From sequence record PQ819470.1: a stretch of 64,000 bases of DNA. One strand, given 5' to 3'. This DNA comes from Escherichia phage ev_rybdy3. This document shows, piece by piece, positions 13,898-23,467 of the stretch; the first letter of the stretch is position 1; every line of letters begins with the position of its first letter. Under the pieces are notes generated by a model. It was not told where the DNA came from, searched no databases, and saw only the letters and a list, made by a program, of their open reading frames with translations. The translations under genes were made by a program, and so were the position numbers.

Positions 13898-15091
13898 ATG
13901 TTTCCAGTAACATTAGAAGATACTGAAGGTAATGTTTTAACGGTCAACCCTCCTTGTTATGGGTTCCTTCAGCTTCGCAACTATAACGGTGGCGTTGATG
14001 AAGATGATGACGAAGATGAATACTTCGACCCTAACATGTATGAGGCAACTCATGGGTGGAATATGCACGTTCGAGTGTGGCATGAAGAAGCTAACGTTCG
14101 TAGTGCTGATGGGGAAGAGTTCCTGTTGAGCCGAGAGATGGATATGTGTAAAATCAAGCATATCTGGAACTCCGGAACTCACATGAAGATGTTAGGTTTT
14201 AGACGTTGGCGTGATGAAAAACCTGTATCCGCAGCTTTAGGTTGGGGTGCTATTGATTACGAAGGCGAGCTTAAAAACAACATTGAACGTTGGAATGACA
14301 AAAACCCTGAACATCGAACCACACCTCGTGCTGTACTGGAAGCTATGGAAGCATTTGTGGACAAAGATCGTCCCTCCTGTTTACGCTGGCACGAAAAAGG
14401 TTTTATGGGTGTAGCAACTGAAAACGTTCCTGCTGATCGTTGTCTGTTCTATTTGATGTTAGATCGAACCTTCTATTGCGAAGATGAAGAGAGTCAGGTT
14501 GAAATCTTCCTTCATAAATGGTTGGTTGAAGGCTGGACAATCCTTCAGGCTTACGTTTATTCCCGAATGGTTAGTACTTACACCAATCTCTTGGGGGAAA
14601 CGAAAGCAACTCTGGTTGGTAATGATTGGGATGCTTGTATCTTCCCAGCGTCGCTGTTTACAGTCGGCATGGCTGATAAATACGCTGAAGCATTTCAAGT
14701 GCCTTGGCGTCAACAGTCGTATAGAGACGGGTGTGGTCACTTCCGTGATGAAGACTTTAAGTGGATTCATTATGAGAACGATGAAACAGCAGAATTGCGA
14801 GTTAACAACTCAATGTTCTTGCCAGTGATGCACCCCGATCTAGTAAAAGATGGGTCAGAGATACTTAAAGGTGATAATCTTTTGGTTAACTTTACCCGTC
14901 GCGTGTCTAAAAATGAGAGAACAGCTAACAGGCTAATCTACGGCATTCGTGCCGAGGCTAAAGACCTGTTCAACATCTACAACATTATTCAGCGATTTAG
15001 TAGTGGAACTCTGGACCAAAGTTCGGAGTATTCAGTGATTCCATCCTCTGAGTGGGATGGTATTATGAGCGGATTATTTTTAGGAAAATAA
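13898..15091 (+). CDS. hypothetical protein, first gene of amidoligase operon
   Basis: GAGGTTGG SD; tight linkage to downstream genes; no motif recognised. Confidence 0.6.
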   Translation: MFPVTLEDTEGNVLTVNPPCYGFLQLRNYNGGVDEDDDEDEYFDPNMYEATHGWNMHVRVWHEEANVRSADGEEFLLSREMDMCKIKHIWNSGTHMKMLGFRRWRDEKPVSAALGWGAIDYEGELKNNIERWNDKNPEHRTTPRAVLEAMEAFVDKDRPSCLRWHEKGFMGVATENVPADRCLFYLMLDRTFYCEDEESQVEIFLHKWLVEGWTILQAYVYSRMVSTYTNLLGETKATLVGNDWDACIFPASLFTVGMADKYAEAFQVPWRQQSYRDGCGHFRDEDFKWIHYENDETAELRVNNSMFLPVMHPDLVKDGSEILKGDNLLVNFTRRVSKNERTANRLIYGIRAEAKDLFNIYNIIQRFSSGTLDQSSEYSVIPSSEWDGIMSGLFLGK

Positions 15092-15101
15092 AAGGTTAGT
15101 T

Positions 15102-16073
15102 ATGTCAATCTCCACAACGATCGTACCTCAGAATCTTCAACAAGATTTAGGGGAACAGAAGTTCTTAGGTCGTGGGTGCTTCGGTATTCACAACTACATG
15201 CAAGGCCAGTGTGTAAATGACATTAATGGTGAAGTTATCACGGAAGAAGGGCGCTATCGTCGCTTCAACCGCGATATCAACTTGCAACTGGAGATGTTGA
15301 ATTACTGGACTCACTCTTTTCATGGTCATGTTGCATCCGATATTGAAAAGAACTTGATTGAAACAGCGGACATTATGAACTCTATGTCTTGCTATCGTGA
15401 TGTATTTACAATCACTTCAGCGAACAGTGTTGCTGTCAATCTTCGTGAGCATCCAGCAGATCAGATCTTCACAGGACTTATGCTCTTCCGTAGCATTCTG
15501 GAAGGGCAGTATCGTGGAATGGATTTCCTAGCAGAAGGAATTGAAGACAGGGAAGAGTGGCTGAAGCGTAAACGCATCGGAATCGCTCTAGTGTTAGCTG
15601 GGTTAGGTCGTGACTTCTTCGGTGGGTGGTCTCAACGAGGAATAGCCAATGGGAATAGCGAGAGCACCTCTATTGTTATTAATAACAATATGTCAGCAGC
15701 AGCATTCCTTCCTTTGGTTGTAGACTCTGATGAATACACGAAACAAGTATGGGTTCAAAATCCCTTCGGTGTTGGTGACAATGAGAATGGTTATGTTCGT
15801 AACCATAACCCAGAGGCCTTACGAAGATTTGCTCGTGCTAAAGATCAAGACCCAACTGAGTATGCAACAATGTCAGAGTGGTTAAGACTCTGGTCCATCT
15901 GTTATGGTCACAAACGTGAAGCAATAGACGACAAGTTGGGAAACATTACAGTACAAAACTTTACAGCCCGACTGATTCAAAGAACTGGAGCAGATTCCGG
16001 TCTTACTCTTGAAGAAGTTGGTAACACAATCTCATCTCTCTTTTCTGAACTAGTGGAGTATTACAATGACTAA
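15102..16073 (+). CDS. hypothetical protein, operon gene 2
   Basis: track ORF; 10-nt gap upstream, 8-nt overlap downstream. Confidence 0.6.
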   Translation: MSISTTIVPQNLQQDLGEQKFLGRGCFGIHNYMQGQCVNDINGEVITEEGRYRRFNRDINLQLEMLNYWTHSFHGHVASDIEKNLIETADIMNSMSCYRDVFTITSANSVAVNLREHPADQIFTGLMLFRSILEGQYRGMDFLAEGIEDREEWLKRKRIGIALVLAGLGRDFFGGWSQRGIANGNSESTSIVINNNMSAAAFLPLVVDSDEYTKQVWVQNPFGVGDNENGYVRNHNPEALRRFARAKDQDPTEYATMSEWLRLWSICYGHKREAIDDKLGNITVQNFTARLIQRTGADSGLTLEEVGNTISSLFSELVEYYND

Positions 16074-16872
16074 GCGCAAATTCCTCATCGGCTCTGACCC
16101 TGAAATGTTCGTTCGTACTAACAACGGTATCATCACCTCTGTGGCTGGTCTGTTAGGCTGTTCTAAGGACGATAAGATCACTCTGGCTAAGGATGTTCGT
16201 CTTCAAGAGGACAACGTACTGGCTGAGTTTGATATTGACCCACAGAGCGGCTTTGAAGCGTTTAACGATAACATGCAACGTGGTATCGATCTCACCAACA
16301 ATGTCCTGAACAAACTGGACATGGAAACAGCTCCGGGTGTTAGCTCTCACATCTTCACTGAAGAAGAGATGAAGACTTTCAATGAATCAGCGTTCATCTT
16401 CGGATGTACTCCTGATTTCAACGCTTTCACTGGTCAGAAGAATCCATCCCCGACTTCTCAGAACAAGGGGCTTCGTACTGCCGGTGGTCACGTACATCTT
16501 GGCGTAGTTGGTGCTTTGGATATCACCCTGCAAACTCAGATGATGCTGGGTGTGCTGTGTGACTATTTCCTGTCCCTCCCAGCAGTTATTATGGATAAAG
16601 ATACTCGCCGTAAAGAACTCTACGGTAAAGCGTCTGCAATCCGTTATAAAGACTATGGTATTGAATATCGTTCACTGTCTAACTTCTGGATTAGTGATCG
16701 TGAAAACCGTAAGTTTGTTTATGATCAGGTTGACAAAGTTGTTCAGCAGTGTGATATGTCCACTCTGATGGCATTGCACTCTCGCCTTCCGATTGAGAAG
16801 CTTCATGAAATCATTAACGGCAACAACGTTAAAGAAGCGGACCAGCAGATCAAACTCCTTCAGGTAGCATAA
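16066..16872 (+). CDS. possible divergent amidoligase-like protein
   Basis: LIGSDPEMF and GGHVHLG resemble motifs of the next-but-one gene; weak. Confidence 0.35.
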   Translation: MTKRKFLIGSDPEMFVRTNNGIITSVAGLLGCSKDDKITLAKDVRLQEDNVLAEFDIDPQSGFEAFNDNMQRGIDLTNNVLNKLDMETAPGVSSHIFTEEEMKTFNESAFIFGCTPDFNAFTGQKNPSPTSQNKGLRTAGGHVHLGVVGALDITLQTQMMLGVLCDYFLSLPAVIMDKDTRRKELYGKASAIRYKDYGIEYRSLSNFWISDRENRKFVYDQVDKVVQQCDMSTLMALHSRLPIEKLHEIINGNNVKEADQQIKLLQVA

Positions 16873-16881
16873 GAGGTTATC

Positions 16882-22601: not shown

Positions 22602-22783
22602 ATAAGTATAAAGTTCTGTTTAAAGATACTAATACCGCTGGTGAAATGCGAGCTATGGACCTCGATGCTGACATGTTTAACTTCTCTGATGGCAAAGTGG
22701 CCTTCTTTCAAGGAAGTGAAGCCGTTGCAGTGTTTGAGAGTGCAGCAATCTGCGGTGTGATTAAAATCTTTATTACAGAGTAG
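22598..22783 (+). CDS. hypothetical protein
   Basis: track ORF, GTGA overlap. Confidence 0.4.
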   Translation: MNKYKVLFKDTNTAGEMRAMDLDADMFNFSDGKVAFFQGSEAVAVFESAAICGVIKIFITE

Positions 22784-22836
22784 TCTGCTTTAGCCTCTTC
22801 GAAAGAGGAGGCTAGTTCGGATAAACTGGAGGTTTT

Positions 22837-23046
22837 ATGAAACATGAAAGATTAAGTAAAGCCATCGATTCTGTATGGGATGCTGGGTGTGTTATCTACC
22901 GAGAGCATCACTCATATGGACAAACCAGAATATTGATTCTTAATCCCTTCTGCGAGCAGTTGGGGTTAGAAGTGTTTGTAACAGGAGCCACTGATCAGCA
23001 GTGTGCTTACATTGAAAACATCATGAAAGACTGGAAAGGTATTTAA
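22837..23046 (+). CDS. hypothetical protein
   Basis: track ORF. Confidence 0.4.
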   Translation: MKHERLSKAIDSVWDAGCVIYREHHSYGQTRILILNPFCEQLGLEVFVTGATDQQCAYIENIMKDWKGI

Positions 23047-23047
23047 A

Positions 23048-23467
23048 ATGTCAGAAGTAATTTATGTAGCAACTTATGGTTCTCTTCGTCGCGGTCAAGC
23101 TAACTATTTAGTTAATGACCGAGCTGGTGCTAAGTCAATTGGTGAAGGTTGGACTGAAGATAACTTTGATCTGTTCCGTTATGGTGGTTCCTACTTCCCA
23201 AGCATCTCTCTCGCACACAGCAATAACAATAAGCCTGTTCGTGTAGAAGTGTTTACTACTGACAAAGCAGGTCTGGAAGGTCCATATGACCGACTGGAAG
23301 GTTACAACAAACGTAGCCCTGAAGATAGCTTCTATCAACGCACCCAGATTGCCGTCAAGCTGGACTCAGGTGAAACTGTTATCGCTTGGATTTATCACAT
23401 CGACGAAGAACAAGATGTTCTGGTTGAATCTGGCGACTGGTCAGAGTATCTGAAAAGTGAATCTTGA
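23048..23467 (+). CDS. gamma-glutamyl cyclotransferase-like (AIG2/GGCT fold) protein
   Basis: YVATYGSLRRGQANY...V...VEVF...LEGPYDRLEGY...AWIY resembles GGCT/GGACT family. Confidence 0.6.
   Translation: MSEVIYVATYGSLRRGQANYLVNDRAGAKSIGEGWTEDNFDLFRYGGSYFPSISLAHSNNNKPVRVEVFTTDKAGLEGPYDRLEGYNKRSPEDSFYQRTQIAVKLDSGETVIAWIYHIDEEQDVLVESGDWSEYLKSES

What the first reader, a model, noticed from the sequence alone, without database searches (positions are those of the whole stretch)
13898..23467. Operon of amidoligase-like, class-II glutamine amidotransferase and RimK-like ATP-grasp genes plus a GGCT-like gene: candidate peptide / gamma-glutamyl ligation-editing system with unknown target
Nine co-directional genes (13898-22346) are packed with overlapping or near-overlapping stops and starts, so they are probably one transcript. 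Motifs read from the translations: gene 17496-18599 has GIELELEG, EDGSLRNGCE and STHVHMD (glutamine-synthetase-fold amidoligase-like); gene 16066-16872 has a weaker HVH-containing version; gene 18679-20709 has an N-terminal Cys with GAT-II-like motifs and a ~400-aa Cys-cluster-rich extension; gene 21153-22346 has a RimK-type ATP-grasp motif (GAVDLI...NAWVLEVNTAPGL); gene 23048-23467 has the AIG2/GGCT pattern (YGSLRRGQANY...). Four other genes (13898, 15102, 16882, 20712/20926) have no motif I recognise. Enzymes that build and trim amide or gamma-glutamyl bonds, in a lytic phage with no obvious biosynthetic need, suggest a tagging or modification pathway acting on a protein, nucleic acid or small molecule. 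I see no ThyA-type base hydroxymethylase, so a thymidine-hypermodification route is not supported. Related domain combinations have been predicted computationally in phages, but I know of no biochemical characterisation.
Basis: partly seen in the sequence, partly recalled or inferred. Interest (0 to 1): 0.85.

Follow-up and report, generated by a model that had tools for sequence, protein, structure and literature searches.

The report
Phage amidoligase / gamma-glutamyl enzyme cassette
This is the phiEco32-type copy of a widespread, virus-only cassette of three ATP-dependent amide-bond ligases and two gamma-glutamyl-cleaving enzymes; it was predicted by computation in 2009, but its target has never been tested by experiment.

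Summary
**Observation: confirmed.** Window 13898-22346 holds nine tightly packed co-directional genes, and 23048-23467 holds a GGACT/AIG2 gene.
- Above Pfam's curated cut-offs: COOH-NH2 ligase type 2, Amidoligase_2, class-II glutamine amidotransferase (GAT-II) and GGACT.
- The ATP-grasp is RimK-like but falls below the family cut-offs.
- Catalytic residues are invariant across about 50-60 homologues.

**Identity.** The window is a Kuravirus, 100% identical to phage ev_rybdy8 and about 97% to phiEco32. The cluster is the already described "seven-gene" phage amidoligase cassette. Iyer 2009 and Hardies 2013, as relayed by later papers, proposed that it modifies peptidoglycan. I found no experimental work.

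**Details I added.**
- The unknown genes g1 and g2 belong to one fast-evolving family with a near-invariant N-terminal Cys-[Phe/Tyr]-Gly motif. This family occurs in most cassettes.
- g4 is a small beta-barrel protein.
- The amidotransferase gene starts at ATT behind a conserved structured leader. At least two GenBank records truncate it.
- The cassette was found only on phage or phage-like contigs.
- Some variants add a Peptidase_C26 gene.

**Best reading.** A cytoplasmic, ATP-driven pathway that builds amide bonds and then trims them, with gamma-glutamyl as the handle. The acceptor is unknown.

**Verdict.** The system is already known as a prediction, so novelty is low, but the open question is real.

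The parts
13898..15091 (+). g1 (phi32_88 homologue), 397 aa. The longer of two members of the 'Cys-[F/Y]-Gly' (CFG) family. PPCYGF sits at Cys20 and is followed by an acidic run (DEDDDEDE). Function unknown.
   Evidence: No Pfam or NCBIfam hit. phrog_13063, function unknown. Retrieved by an HMM built from all other family members (best E 7.5e-6; 5 of 11 members found). The motif is at a constant position. hhalign against the g2 sub-alignment is not significant.
15102..16073 (+). g2 (phi32_87 homologue), 323 aa. Second CFG-family member, with GCFGI at Cys26. Family-wide conserved residues are Cys26, Asp120, Arg130, Gln219, Tyr231 and Arg233.
16066..16872 (+). g3 (phi32_86 homologue), 268 aa. 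COOH-NH2 ligase type 2, a predicted ATP-dependent amidoligase of the glutamine-synthetase-like group.
   Evidence: Pfam PF14395, 34.1 bits against a cut-off of 25. phrog_3815. Invariant in 33 homologues: D11, E13, Q47-E48-D49-N50, E54, R137, H142, H144, E200 and R202. No sequence relative among solved structures.
16882..17499 (+). g4 (phi32_85 homologue), 205 aa, GTG start. A core cassette protein without a recognisable catalytic motif. It has small beta-barrel subdomains plus a conserved flexible segment (residues 84-127).
17496..18599 (+). g5 (phi32_84 homologue), 367 aa. Amidoligase_2 domain in residues about 25-265, plus a lineage-specific C-terminal extension.
   Evidence: Pfam PF12224, 33.8 bits against 22. 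phrog_7469. Invariant: G29, E31, E33, E35, S52-L53, H95, H97, E119, R130, Y171, E186 and R188. No sequence relative among solved structures.
18600..18678 (+). Conserved 79-nt leader of the amidotransferase gene. It holds two hairpins, a Shine-Dalgarno sequence AGGTGG (18664-18669) and an in-frame TAG (18673-18675) one codon before the ATT start.
   Evidence: 92% identical to phage EP335, against 69-75% for the flanking coding DNA; the last 50 nt are identical. RNA fold -28.1 kcal/mol, z = -2.5.
18679..20709 (+). g6 (phi32_83 homologue), 676 aa. Class-II (N-terminal nucleophile) glutamine amidotransferase domain in residues 1-240. It is followed by a Ser/Tyr-rich linker, a weakly conserved middle region, and a lineage-specific tail with three four-Cys clusters (from C440, C487 and C641). 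Initiates at ATT.
   Evidence: GATase_6, 55.1 bits against 27. Cys2, Arg86, Asn111-Gly112 and Asp129 are invariant in 50 homologues and align with the GlmS glutamine-site residues. ATT starts 9 loci and ATG starts 55. Cys clusters. No Pfam match for the tail. The GenBank records of phages Paul and ev_rybdy8 start at the internal ATG 19021 and so lose the nucleophile; the phiEco32 RefSeq record keeps the full length.
20712..20945 (+). g7 (phi32_82 homologue), 77 aa. DUF7195, an optional small cassette protein found between the amidotransferase and the ATP-grasp.
   Evidence: Pfam PF23825, 61.9 bits against 27. Homologues occur at the same position in 7-11-like, Lahexavirus and LUZ24-like phages. 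The C-terminus is not conserved. Absent from the minimal marine cassettes.
20926..21150 (+). g8 (phi32_81 homologue), 74 aa. A lineage-specific small ORF that overlaps g7 by 20 nt.
   Evidence: phrog_13464. Found only in Gordonclarkvirinae-type loci.
21153..22346 (+). g9 (phi32_80 homologue), 397 aa. RimK-like ATP-grasp ligase in residues about 1-265, then an acidic linker and an 82-residue C-terminal domain (22098-22346) that has its own PHROG family.
   Evidence: The family profile hits RimK structures at 1e-9 and 5e-8. NCBIfam MptN 6.7e-8 and rimK_fam 2.7e-7, both far below their cut-offs. Invariant: K85, E157, R159, K173, D229, E241 and N243. phrog_20552 covers residues 316-397.
23048..23467 (+). 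g13 (phi32_77 homologue), 139 aa. GGACT/AIG2-type gamma-glutamyl cyclotransferase. It is separated from the ATP-grasp gene by gp79 and two small ORFs.
   Evidence: Pfam PF06094, 64.3 bits against 22.8. The family profile hits E. coli YtfP (1xhs) at 1e-24 and human GGACT (3jub) at 2e-12. Y10-G11-L13 is nearly invariant and E84 is invariant. Present in 57 loci, usually directly after the ATP-grasp.

Best explanation
**What it is.** The region is the Kuravirus copy of a virus-restricted cassette with seven protein families:
1. One or two 'CFG' proteins (g1, g2).
2. A COOH-NH2 ligase type 2 (g3).
3. A small beta-barrel protein (g4).
4. An Amidoligase_2 enzyme (g5).
5. A class-II glutamine amidotransferase, GAT-II (g6).
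6. A RimK-like ATP-grasp ligase (g9).
7. A GGACT-type cyclotransferase (g13).

It is expressed early in infection, and all its products are predicted to be soluble.

**Tier 1: the chemistry class (about 0.7).**
- The three ligases use ATP, through acyl-phosphate intermediates, to form up to three amide bonds. At least one of these is a gamma-glutamyl amide.
- The amidotransferase has an intact pocket for the free alpha-amino and alpha-carboxyl groups of glutamine or a gamma-glutamyl group. It either donates amide nitrogen from glutamine or hydrolyses a gamma-glutamyl amide, as EgtC does.
- The cyclotransferase removes a gamma-L-glutamyl group with a free amino group, releasing 5-oxoproline.
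- Gamma-glutamyl therefore acts as a handle or protecting group that is put on and taken off. This build-and-trim logic is known from butirosin (BtrJ/BtrG), ergothioneine (EgtA/EgtC) and putrescine (PuuA/PuuD) metabolism.

**Tier 2: the acceptor (my pick, only about 0.3).**
- The chemistry takes place on, or is guided by, the cassette's own non-enzymatic proteins.
- The near-invariant N-terminal Cys of the CFG proteins would be the attachment or reaction site.
- The alternative is that the enzymes act freely on host peptidoglycan precursors.

**Shown and inferred.**
- Shown here: the family assignments, intact active sites, cassette composition, conservation and virus restriction.
- Inferred: every reaction, its order and the acceptor.
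For: **Enzyme identities and active sites**
- Family assignments and intact catalytic residues.

**Cassette conservation**
- The same order recurs in Kuravirus, Nieuwekanaalvirus, Moazamivirus, Lahexavirus and Bruynoghevirus.
- It also recurs in 72 IMG/VR loci.
- Family counts among those loci: g3 in 70, g5 in 70, g6 in 69, g9 in 68, g4 in 60, g13 in 57.

**Gamma-glutamyl theme**
- 14 variant cassettes carry a Peptidase_C26 / class-I amidotransferase gene directly upstream of g3. This is the gamma-glutamyl hydrolase family.

**Virus restriction**
- A scan of one genome for each of 100,044 species found only 14 loci. All sit on small scaffolds or metagenome-bin contigs, and those long enough to read carry other cassette or phage replication genes.

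**Cytoplasmic location**
- None of the cassette proteins (g1-g9, g13) has a hydrophobic 19-residue segment above 1.6 on the Kyte-Doolittle scale.

**Early expression**
- SU10 proteomics (PMC4281155), together with the absence of internal phage-sigma promoters.

**Support for the tier-2 acceptor idea**
- 55 of 71 loci carry a cassette protein with C-[FYC]-[GAR] at residues 20-50. The background rate outside cassettes is 11 of 489 proteins.
- Leave-one-family-out HMMs recover g1, g2 and the marine family.
- Three further non-enzyme families (CFG, g4, DUF7195) travel with the enzymes.
- Enzyme types that act on gamma-Glu-Cys bonds in known pathways resemble three cassette members. These are GCS2-type ligases, EgtC and ChaC/GGCT-fold enzymes (established knowledge, not tested here).
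Against: - No reaction was tested, and no solved structure or characterised close relative exists for g3 or g5.
- The two amidoligase families cannot be linked to each other by profile comparison.
- The ATP-grasp fails the curated RimK and MptN cut-offs, so its substrate cannot be read from its family.
- CFG-family homology is not confirmed by hhalign on the shallow sub-alignments (probability below 1%).
- The CFG proteins may simply be unknown enzymes.
- The Cys motif lies in a low-confidence part of the model.
- 16 of 71 loci show no motif protein with my crude gene calling.
- The published proposal (peptidoglycan) differs from my preferred acceptor and is not excluded.
Confidence: 0.6

Rival explanations
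1. **Peptidoglycan modification (the published proposal).** The three ligases build unusual peptide links on cytoplasmic murein precursors. The amidotransferase amidates them and the cyclotransferase trims them. The altered wall would exclude superinfecting phages or prepare the cell for lysis.
For: - Proposed by Iyer et al. 2009 and Hardies et al. 2013, as relayed in PMC10580990, PMC11945000, PMC6256558 and PMC5498523.
- Murein stem peptides contain gamma-glutamyl links and glutamine-dependent amidations, and D-Ala-D-Ala ligases are ATP-grasp enzymes (established knowledge).
- D-Ala-D-Ala ligase appears among the weaker hits of g9.
- The hosts are diverse, so a universal target such as murein would fit.
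Against: - No experiment was found.
- The ATP-grasp is closest to RimK and MptN, not to Ddl.
- No Mur-ligase, membrane or periplasmic component is present, and all proteins are predicted soluble.
- The glutamine pocket and the GGACT fold recognise L-gamma-glutamyl groups with free alpha groups, whereas murein has D-isoglutamate inside a chain (established knowledge).
- The proposal does not explain three conserved non-enzyme families.
- Expression is early, in phages with short latent periods.
Confidence: 0.2
2. **Free small-molecule metabolism.** The cassette makes or consumes a soluble gamma-glutamyl amine or short peptide. One possibility is gamma-glutamylating polyamines or a thiol. Another is building a novel peptide metabolite with gamma-glutamyl as a protecting group. 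Either would adjust host metabolism or blunt a host response.
For: - All three bond-cleaving families have members that act on small gamma-glutamyl amides. Examples are EgtC for GAT-II, PuuD for Peptidase_C26, and GGACT and BtrG for the GGACT fold (established knowledge).
- RimK-family ligases include cofactor glutamate ligases such as MptN, which is the best NCBIfam hit of g9.
Against: - A small-molecule pathway does not obviously need the CFG, g4 and DUF7195 proteins. In particular it does not explain fast-evolving CFG paralogues.
- No transporter, decarboxylase, oxidoreductase or other tailoring enzyme is conserved in the cassette.
- The cassette was not found in cellular genomes, where such a pathway would also be useful.
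Confidence: 0.2
3. **Modification of a host protein.** The RimK-like ligase and the amidoligases add glutamate or peptide tags to a host protein such as ribosomal protein S6, RNA polymerase or a defence protein. The amidotransferase-like and GGACT enzymes edit the tags. The CFG and g4 proteins act as targeting adaptors.
For: - The closest solved relatives of g9 are RimK enzymes, which glutamylate ribosomal protein S6.
- Two glutamine-synthetase-like ligases recall the PafA/Dop pair of pupylation (established knowledge).
- Fast-evolving accessory proteins and lineage-specific zinc-cluster tails would suit target recognition.
- Expression is early.
Against: - RimK membership cut-offs are not met.
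- The one candidate I examined, g7, does not have a conserved C-terminus.
- GGACT-type enzymes are known to act on free gamma-glutamyl amines, not on protein-bound ones (established knowledge).
- No host partner is indicated by any result here.
Confidence: 0.15
4. **Nucleic-acid modification.** The cassette decorates phage DNA or nucleotides with an amino-acid-derived group. This would explain the marked restriction resistance of Gordonclarkvirinae.
For: [quoted passage not shown]
- The cassette sits next to the primase/helicase and exonuclease genes in many lineages.
- Amidoligase and amidotransferase genes co-occur with thymidine-hypermodification genes in some viral contigs (PMC8989533).
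Against: - No dUMP hydroxymethylase is present; the thymidylate synthase is ThyX.
- No 5-hmU kinase or aGPT-Pplase is annotated in the identical GenBank record.
- DNA of the cassette-bearing LUZ24-like phage U17 was cut by 11 of 16 restriction enzymes (PMC11945000).
- Nanopore analysis of a relative of the cassette-bearing phage UFV-P2 reported nicks but no base modification (PMC11780129).
- The authors who reported the restriction resistance point to the dCTP deaminase and nucleotidyltransferase genes instead.
Confidence: 0.07

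Closest known systems
Phage 'seven-gene' amidoligase / putative peptidoglycan-modification cassette (phiEco32 genes 77-88, LUZ24, PaP3, tf, PA11, 7-11, RIO-1, CW02)
   Same: It is the same system. The window is 96-100% identical in DNA to Kuravirus genomes. The gene-for-gene match to phi32_77 through phi32_88 is shown. Pfam PF14395 is named after phiEco32. Order and content match the published description (PMC5498523; PMC6256558).
   Different: Nothing essential differs. Compared with the minimal marine cassettes, this copy has a second CFG paralogue, DUF7195, g8, long C-terminal extensions on g5, g6 and g9, and an ATT start on g6. gp79 plus two small ORFs are inserted before the GGACT gene.
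Ergothioneine enzymes EgtA (GCS2-type gamma-glutamylcysteine ligase) and EgtC (class-II amidotransferase-fold gamma-glutamyl amidohydrolase)
   Same: A glutamine-synthetase-like ligase is paired with an N-terminal-Cys amidotransferase-fold enzyme, which adds and later removes a gamma-glutamyl group. EgtC appears among the weak hits of g6.
   Different: Similarity to EgtC is weak (E 0.04 against PDB; 20 bits against a cut-off of 219). No EgtB or EgtD counterparts are present. The phage cassette has two further ligases and a cyclotransferase.
Butirosin side-chain pathway: BtrJ (ATP-grasp), BtrI (carrier protein) and BtrG (GGACT-fold cyclotransferase)
   Same: An ATP-grasp ligase installs a gamma-glutamyl protecting group on a carrier-bound intermediate. 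A GGACT-fold enzyme then removes it as 5-oxoproline. This is the same logic I propose (established knowledge).
   Different: No phosphopantetheine carrier, decarboxylase or acyltransferase is present here. Any carrier role of the CFG Cys is pure inference.
RimK-family alpha-L-glutamate ligases (RimK, MptN, CofF, LysX)
   Same: The ATP-grasp core of g9 aligns over about 220 residues with RimK structures, and the Mg/ATP ligands are conserved.
   Different: Scores are far below the curated family cut-offs (30.3 against 143.4 for rimK_fam; 31.9 against 350 for MptN). g9 has an extra acidic linker and C-terminal domain. No LysW-like carrier with an acidic C-terminus is present.
Pupylation (PafA ligase / Dop deamidase, both glutamine-synthetase-like, with the small protein Pup)
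   Same: Two divergent ligases assigned to the glutamine-synthetase-like group are encoded together with small proteins, and an isopeptide-type gamma-glutamyl chemistry is plausible.
   Different: g7 has no conserved C-terminal Gly-Gly-Gln/Glu; its C-terminus is not conserved. g3 and g5 show no detectable sequence relation to each other or to any solved structure.
Putrescine utilisation pathway: PuuA (glutamine-synthetase-like gamma-glutamylputrescine synthetase) and PuuD (Peptidase_C26)
   Same: A ligase plus a gamma-glutamyl hydrolase act on an amine. 14 variant cassettes carry a Peptidase_C26 gene.
   Different: The window itself has no C26 gene. No oxidase or dehydrogenase steps are present.

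Membership tests
Phage amidoligase ('peptidoglycan modification') cassette | COOH-NH2 ligase type 2 and Amidoligase_2 genes are both present | tested here: met
   PF14395 scores 34.1 against a cut-off of 25. PF12224 scores 33.8 against 22.
Phage amidoligase ('peptidoglycan modification') cassette | Class-II amidotransferase, ATP-grasp and AIG2/GGCT genes lie in the same co-directional block | tested here: met
Phage amidoligase ('peptidoglycan modification') cassette | Gene order is conserved with other members | tested here: met
   The same order occurs in five cultured genera and in 72 IMG/VR loci.
Phage amidoligase ('peptidoglycan modification') cassette | Acts on peptidoglycan | not testable with these tools
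   Only a literature hypothesis. No experiment was found.
Class-II (Ntn) glutamine amidotransferase | Cys directly after the initiator residue | tested here: met
   ATT-TGT at 18679, with a stop one codon upstream and a Shine-Dalgarno sequence. 55 homologues have ATG-TGT. Use of the ATT start is inferred, not shown.
Class-II (Ntn) glutamine amidotransferase | Glutamine-site residues equivalent to GlmS Arg73, Asn98-Gly99 and Asp123 | tested here: met
   Arg86, Asn111-Gly112 and Asp129 are invariant in 50 sequences and align to the GlmS structure 1xff.
Class-II (Ntn) glutamine amidotransferase | A fused or partnered acceptor (synthase) domain that receives ammonia | tested here: inconclusive
   Residues beyond about 240 have no Pfam match and are poorly conserved. 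The enzyme could equally be an EgtC-like hydrolase.
RimK family alpha-L-glutamate ligase | Score above the curated family cut-off | tested here: not met
   Pfam RimK 19.2 against 21. TIGR00768 30.3 against 143.4, and the RimK equivalog 23.3 against 331.
RimK family alpha-L-glutamate ligase | ATP-grasp Lys, Asp, Glu and Asn ligands for ATP and Mg | tested here: met
   K85, K173, D229, E241 and N243 are invariant in 34 sequences. They align with the RimK structure 7qys.
GGACT / AIG2 gamma-glutamyl(amine) cyclotransferase | Pfam cut-off, the YGSL motif and the catalytic Glu | tested here: met
   PF06094 scores 64.3 against 22.8. Y10-G11-L13 is nearly invariant and E84 is invariant. The profile hits YtfP at 1e-24 and human GGACT at 2e-12.
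Thymidine hypermodification pathway (5-hmdU based) | dUMP hydroxymethylase (ThyA-type) or TET/JBP oxygenase | tested here: not met
   The only thymidylate synthase is ThyX (PF02511, 1.4e-43). None is annotated in the first 50 kb of the identical record, the part shown.
Thymidine hypermodification pathway (5-hmdU based) | 5-hmU DNA kinase and aGPT-Pplase | not tested
   I did not scan every ORF of the window. None is annotated in the first 50 kb of record PQ819471.1.
Pupylation-like tagging | A small tag protein with a conserved C-terminal Gln or Glu | tested here: not met
   The C-terminus of g7 (DUF7195) is not conserved among four phages.
LysW-type amino-group carrier system | A small carrier protein with a conserved acidic C-terminal tail, next to a RimK-family ligase | tested here: not met
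   No cassette protein in the window ends in a conserved acidic tail. g7 was the only small protein aligned across phages, and its C-terminus is not conserved. The candidate Lys110 of g4 is not conserved family-wide.

The most novel reading that the evidence does not exclude
The cassette is a protein-templated amide-ligation system. The near-invariant Cys in the flexible N-terminus of the CFG proteins (window Cys20 of g1 and Cys26 of g2) would be the site on which the ligases build a gamma-glutamyl-containing adduct. The Cys could serve as a thiol carrier, or as a new N-terminus after removal of a 20-30 residue propeptide. The amidotransferase-fold and GGACT enzymes would then trim or release the adduct. 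This would be a phage counterpart of LysW-, Pup- or scaffold-peptide-based chemistry. Its product could be an anti-defence factor that contributes to the unexplained restriction resistance of these phages.
Probability: 0.12. Interest if true: 0.85.

Novelty: already known. Interest (0 to 1): 0.45.

Why it matters
The cassette is carried by hundreds of sequenced phages of Escherichia, Pseudomonas, Salmonella, Aeromonas, Vibrio and marine bacteria: 302 phage records match g5 alone. Several of these groups are used in phage therapy. It takes up about 10% of a 77-kb genome, and none of its reactions has been tested since it was predicted in 2009.

Working out its product would assign functions to three protein families that currently have none. 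It would also test the peptidoglycan hypothesis. It might identify a new way for phages to take over the host or evade its defences.

For annotation there is an immediate practical point. At least two GenBank records (phages Paul and ev_rybdy8) truncate the amidotransferase by 114 residues because the gene starts at ATT, so the catalytic cysteine is missing from the deposited protein sequences.

Tried and rejected
**Structure and fold searches that gave no lead**

**Ideas tested and dropped**
- g4 as a lysine-bearing carrier: Lys110 is conserved among four phages but falls below 80% in the wider family.
- g7 as a Pup- or LysW-like tag: its C-terminus is not conserved.

**Profile comparisons that were not significant**
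- g3 against g5: not significant, so their common fold rests on the Pfam assignments only.
- g1 against g2, and g2 against the marine CFG group: not significant. I keep the family on the strength of leave-one-out HMMs, the motif, synteny and the BFVD matches, and I flag it as probable only.
- Sequence search of solved structures with g3 and g5 profiles and with single sequences of g6 and g13: no hits.

**Other scans without result**
- Pfam on the C-terminal extensions of g5, g6 and g9 and on the small ORFs: nothing.
- NCBIfam: no family for g1-g5, g7, g8 or g13.
- A phage-sigma (gp36) promoter inside the cluster: none found.

**Not reached or not used**
- The key papers were not held in the library: Iyer 2009, Savalia 2008 and Hardies 2013. 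Their content is cited second-hand.
- The representative-protein search and the third homologue search were not used. Remote members score too weakly to be seen in billion-sequence databases.

Full report
**1. What is in the sequence**

I number them g1-g9 and g13:

| Gene | Coordinates |
|---|---|
| g1 | 13898-15091 |
| g2 | 15102-16073 |
| g3 | 16066-16872 |
| g4 | 16882-17499 |
| g5 | 17496-18599 |
| g6 | 18679-20709 |
| g7 | 20712-20945 |
| g8 | 20926-21150 |
| g9 | 21153-22346 |
| g13 | 23048-23467 |

- Gaps and overlaps between successive genes are +10, -8, +9, -4, +79, +2, -20 and +2 nt. Most starts have a purine-rich ribosome-binding site.
- The simple terminator scan finds plausible + strand terminators upstream (12611-12636 and 13325-13342) but none that is convincing inside the block.
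- The phiEco32 sigma (gp36) promoter element TAATGTATA has no exact + strand match before 33644. The nearest one-mismatch + strand match is at 28527 (consensus taken from PMC8948821).
- One polycistronic early transcript is therefore plausible but not shown.

**2. Where the window comes from**

- The 9.6-kb region is 100% identical to Escherichia phage ev_rybdy8 and 94-96.5% identical to the other listed Kuravirus genomes. The g5 protein is 97% identical to that of phiEco32.
- The genes correspond one-for-one to phiEco32 genes 88 to 77.
- The ORF at 22353-22601, which separates the ATP-grasp from the GGACT gene, is 100% identical to phi32_gp79. gp79 is the RNA-polymerase-binding regulator that shuts off sigma-70 transcription (PMC8948821).

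**3. The enzymes**

- *Pfam results.* COOH-NH2_lig, described as 'Phage phiEco32-like COOH.NH2 ligase-type 2', matches g3. Amidoligase_2 matches g5, GATase_6 matches g6 and GGACT matches g13. All four are above the curated cut-offs.
- *ATP-grasp g9.* It scores just below the RimK and Ddl cut-offs and far below the NCBIfam RimK and MptN cut-offs. A profile of 34 homologues hits the RimK structures 7qys and 4iwx at 1e-9 and 5e-8 over about 220 residues. It is therefore RimK-like, not a RimK family member.
- *Active sites, checked on alignments of distant homologues taken from related loci:*
  - g6: Cys2, Arg86, Asn111-Gly112 and Asp129 are invariant in 50 sequences. They align with the glutamine-site residues of the GlmS glutaminase domain.
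  - g9: Lys85, Glu157, Arg159, Lys173, Asp229, Glu241 and Asn243 are invariant.
  - g5: the E-x-E-x-E, H-x-H and E-F-R motifs are invariant.
  - g3: D-x-E, QEDN, H-x-H and E-Y-R are invariant.
  - g13: Glu84 is invariant and the YGSL motif (Y10, G11, L13) is nearly so. Its best solved relative is E. coli YtfP at 1e-24, with human GGACT at 2e-12.
- All five enzymes therefore look catalytically competent.
- g3 and g5 have no sequence relative among solved structures, and profile comparison does not link them to each other.

**4. The amidotransferase start codon**

- The ORF listing starts g6 at an internal TTG. The N-terminal nucleophile Cys is encoded by TGT at 18682, preceded by ATT (18679), a TAG stop one codon further up, and AGGTGG 9 nt upstream.
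- In 55 homologues the same position reads ATG-TGT. In 9 loci it reads ATT-TGT. Eight of these are Gordonclarkvirinae-type loci and one is an unrelated IMG/VR contig, L025.
- The 79-nt leader is 92% identical between this phage and EP335, and its last 50 nt are identical. The flanking coding DNA is only 69-75% identical.
- The leader folds into two hairpins (z = -2.5).
- The phiEco32 RefSeq record annotates the full 676 residues. The records of phages Paul and ev_rybdy8 start at the internal ATG and lose the catalytic Cys.
A weak start codon behind a conserved structured leader suggests that synthesis of this enzyme is deliberately limited. That last point is inference.

**5. The cassette across phages**

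- tblastn with g5 finds 302 phage records from Escherichia, Pseudomonas, Aeromonas, Vibrio, Proteus, Salmonella, Cronobacter, Pseudoalteromonas, Porphyromonas and others.
- Annotated neighbourhoods in Bruynoghevirus Ab22, Lahexavirus LAh_9, Moazamivirus SeKF_80, Nieuwekanaalvirus EP335 and phiEco32 all show one order:
  - two proteins of about 300 aa;
  - the type-2 ligase;
  - a protein of about 200 aa;
  - Amidoligase_2;
  - the amidotransferase;
  - a protein of about 75 aa;
  - the ATP-grasp;
  - the GGCT gene, which is upstream in LAh_9 and not annotated in the SeKF_80 stretch.
- A pattern scan of IMG/VR with the g3 alignment returned 72 loci. I called ORFs and clustered them locally. Counts by family were g5 in 70 loci, g3 in 70, g6 in 69, g9 in 68, g4 in 60 and g13 in 57.
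- The minimal marine form is X-g3-g4-g5-g6-g9-g13, with an amidotransferase of about 375 aa.
- DUF7195 (g7) is optional. g8 and the long C-terminal extensions of g5, g6 and g9 are lineage-specific. These extensions include three four-Cys clusters in g6 that match no Pfam family.
- A scan of one genome per species for 100,044 species found only 14 loci. All sit on small scaffolds or metagenome-bin contigs, and those long enough to read carry other cassette or phage replication genes.
- Within the limits of pattern-based scanning, the cassette is restricted to viruses.

**6.

*g1 and g2*
- They share an N-terminal C-[F/Y]-G motif: PPCYGF at Cys20 in g1 and GCFGI at Cys26 in g2. They also share a P-A-D...R motif.
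- An iterative HMM started from g2 converged on 65 proteins in 48 loci. It included g1 and the protein 'X' of the marine cassettes. Cys is conserved in 96% of members, Arg130 in 100%, and Asp120, Gln219, Tyr231 and Arg233 are also conserved.
- Leave-one-family-out HMMs recover g1 (best E 7.5e-6), g2 (3e-10) and the marine group (2.8e-9) from a set of 2195 proteins. The only outsiders they hit are other cassette-adjacent proteins.
- The two LUZ24-like proteins also carry CFG, by eye.
- Pairwise hhalign of the shallow sub-alignments is not significant. I therefore call the family probable.
- In 55 of 71 loci at least one non-enzyme cassette protein has C-[FYC]-[GAR] at residues 20-50. Outside cassettes the rate is 11 of 489 proteins. 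Loci lacking the long form often have short 'HCCG' proteins between the ATP-grasp and the GGCT gene.
- The AlphaFold2 model of g2 (pLDDT 72, pTM 0.77) is mainly helical, and its first 60 residues, including the motif, have low confidence.
- The model matches nothing in the PDB. In BFVD the top-ranked matches are uncharacterised phage proteins, several of them from phages shown here to carry the cassette.

*g4*
- The model is of modest quality (pLDDT 68). It shows small beta-barrels of the SH3/Tudor/KOW kind and a conserved but low-confidence segment at residues 84-127.

*Peptidase_C26 variant*
- Fourteen variant cassettes carry a Peptidase_C26 / class-I amidotransferase gene next to g3. This is the gamma-glutamyl hydrolase family.

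**7. What is already known**

- It has also been called a 'peptidoglycan modification cassette' conserved in RIO-1, phiEco32, 7-11, PA11, tf, MR299-2, LUZ24, PaP3 and CW02 (PMC5498523).
- The suggested roles are superinfection exclusion or preparing the wall for lysis (PMC11945000; PMC10580990). These papers cite Iyer et al. 2009 and Hardies et al. 2013, which I could not open.
- Full-text searches found no experimental test.
- SU10 proteomics detected the ATP-grasp, amidotransferase and YtfP-like proteins as early gene products (PMC4281155).

**8. How it most likely works**

*Shown*
- Three intact ATP-dependent ligases of two different folds.
- An amidotransferase-fold enzyme with a complete pocket for a free glutamine or gamma-glutamyl group.
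- A GGACT-fold cyclotransferase with its catalytic Glu.
- All products are predicted soluble.
- All travel together with two or three non-enzyme families.

*Inferred from the known chemistry of these folds*
- The ligases make amide bonds through acyl-phosphates, and at least one bond is gamma-glutamyl.
- The amidotransferase either supplies nitrogen or, like EgtC, hydrolyses a gamma-glutamyl amide.
- The cyclotransferase removes a gamma-glutamyl group as 5-oxoproline.
- The presence of both writers and erasers, plus a third eraser type (C26) in variants, fits gamma-glutamyl being used as a transient handle. The same logic operates in the butirosin, ergothioneine and putrescine pathways.
- I put about 0.7 on this chemistry class.

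*The acceptor is open. My ranking:*

| Acceptor | Probability |
|---|---|
| Carried on or guided by the cassette's own Cys-motif proteins | about 0.3 |
| Peptidoglycan precursors | 0.2 |
| A free small amine or peptide | 0.2 |
| A host protein | 0.15 |
| Nucleic acid | 0.07 |

*Arguments on the acceptor*
- Against peptidoglycan: the RimK-like rather than Ddl-like ligase, the L-gamma-glutamyl specificity expected of the erasers, the lack of any envelope component, and the unexplained accessory proteins.
- Against DNA modification:
  - The phage has ThyX and no hydroxymethylase.
  - DNA of the cassette-bearing phage U17 is digestible.
  - Nanopore data for a relative of the cassette-bearing phage UFV-P2 showed nicks only.
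- Still open: the strong and unexplained restriction resistance of Gordonclarkvirinae (PMC11990801) keeps an anti-defence role worth testing.

**9. Verdict**

- The system is already known as a computational prediction, and this locus is essentially its type example. Novelty is therefore low.
- The function remains an open question that has stood since 2009.
- Incremental points from this work:
  - the Cys-motif family as a near-universal component;
  - the beta-barrel protein g4;
  - the ATT start with its conserved leader, and the resulting truncated annotations;
  - the apparent restriction to viruses;
  - the C26 variants.
- Interest is moderate.

Noticed in passing
window 18600-18684: The amidotransferase gene starts at ATT behind a leader that is more conserved than the neighbouring coding DNA (92% against 69-75% compared with phage EP335). 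The leader has two hairpins. An unrelated IMG/VR contig (L025:12611) also has an ATT start. The GenBank records of phages Paul and ev_rybdy8 truncate the protein by 114 residues and lose the catalytic Cys.
   Followed up: partly
window 22353-22601: [quoted passage not shown] It is inserted into the cassette only in this lineage.
   Followed up: partly
window 9093-9168 (+): A single tRNA-Arg gene (anticodon TCT) lies upstream among the early genes. It was found by both Rfam and ARAGORN.
   Followed up: no
window 11458-13137 (+): Several ORFs of about 80 aa upstream of the cassette are paralogues. ORFs 11709-11954, 11957-12205 and 12895-13137 match each other at E 1e-7 to 1e-9, and 11458-11712 matches marginally. 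They share a '...NL.TG.L...' motif. Function unknown.
   Followed up: partly
window about 25973-42700 (record PQ819471.1 19739-36367): The same window encodes several proteins that suggest NAD/ADP-ribose or nucleotide-centred conflict functions:
- a Macro domain protein;
- a stand-alone DNA-ligase-like NAD+-binding domain (Nlig-Ia);
- a YspA/SLOG-like protein;
- PhoH, ThyX and dCTP deaminase;
- a CCA-enzyme-like nucleotidyltransferase.

A published study reports that these phages resist restriction by an unknown mechanism.
   Followed up: partly
L063, L067, L073, L053 and about 10 other loci (gene directly upstream of the g3 homologue, e.g. L073:9317-9982): Variant cassettes carry a Peptidase_C26 / class-I glutamine amidotransferase gene. 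This is a third type of gamma-glutamyl-bond-cleaving enzyme.
   Followed up: partly
L024:8654-9184, L063:14876-15379, L025:15165-15611, L064:8850-9494: Small proteins of 130-210 aa with an N-terminal 'HCCG'-like motif lie between the ATP-grasp and GGCT genes. They occur in cassettes that lack the long CFG proteins. They may be short relatives or functional substitutes.
   Followed up: partly
L066:8522-10135, L073, L068, L090: In a rearranged cassette type, a protein of 420-580 aa next to the amidotransferase shows Amidoligase_2-type motifs by eye, after a long N-terminal region of unknown function.
   Followed up: no
window 19996-20709 (g6 residues 440-676): Three four-cysteine clusters, probably zinc ribbons, lie in the Kuravirus-specific tail of the amidotransferase. 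The first and third share a 'C..C.K.I.W.DA' pattern. No Pfam match.
   Followed up: partly
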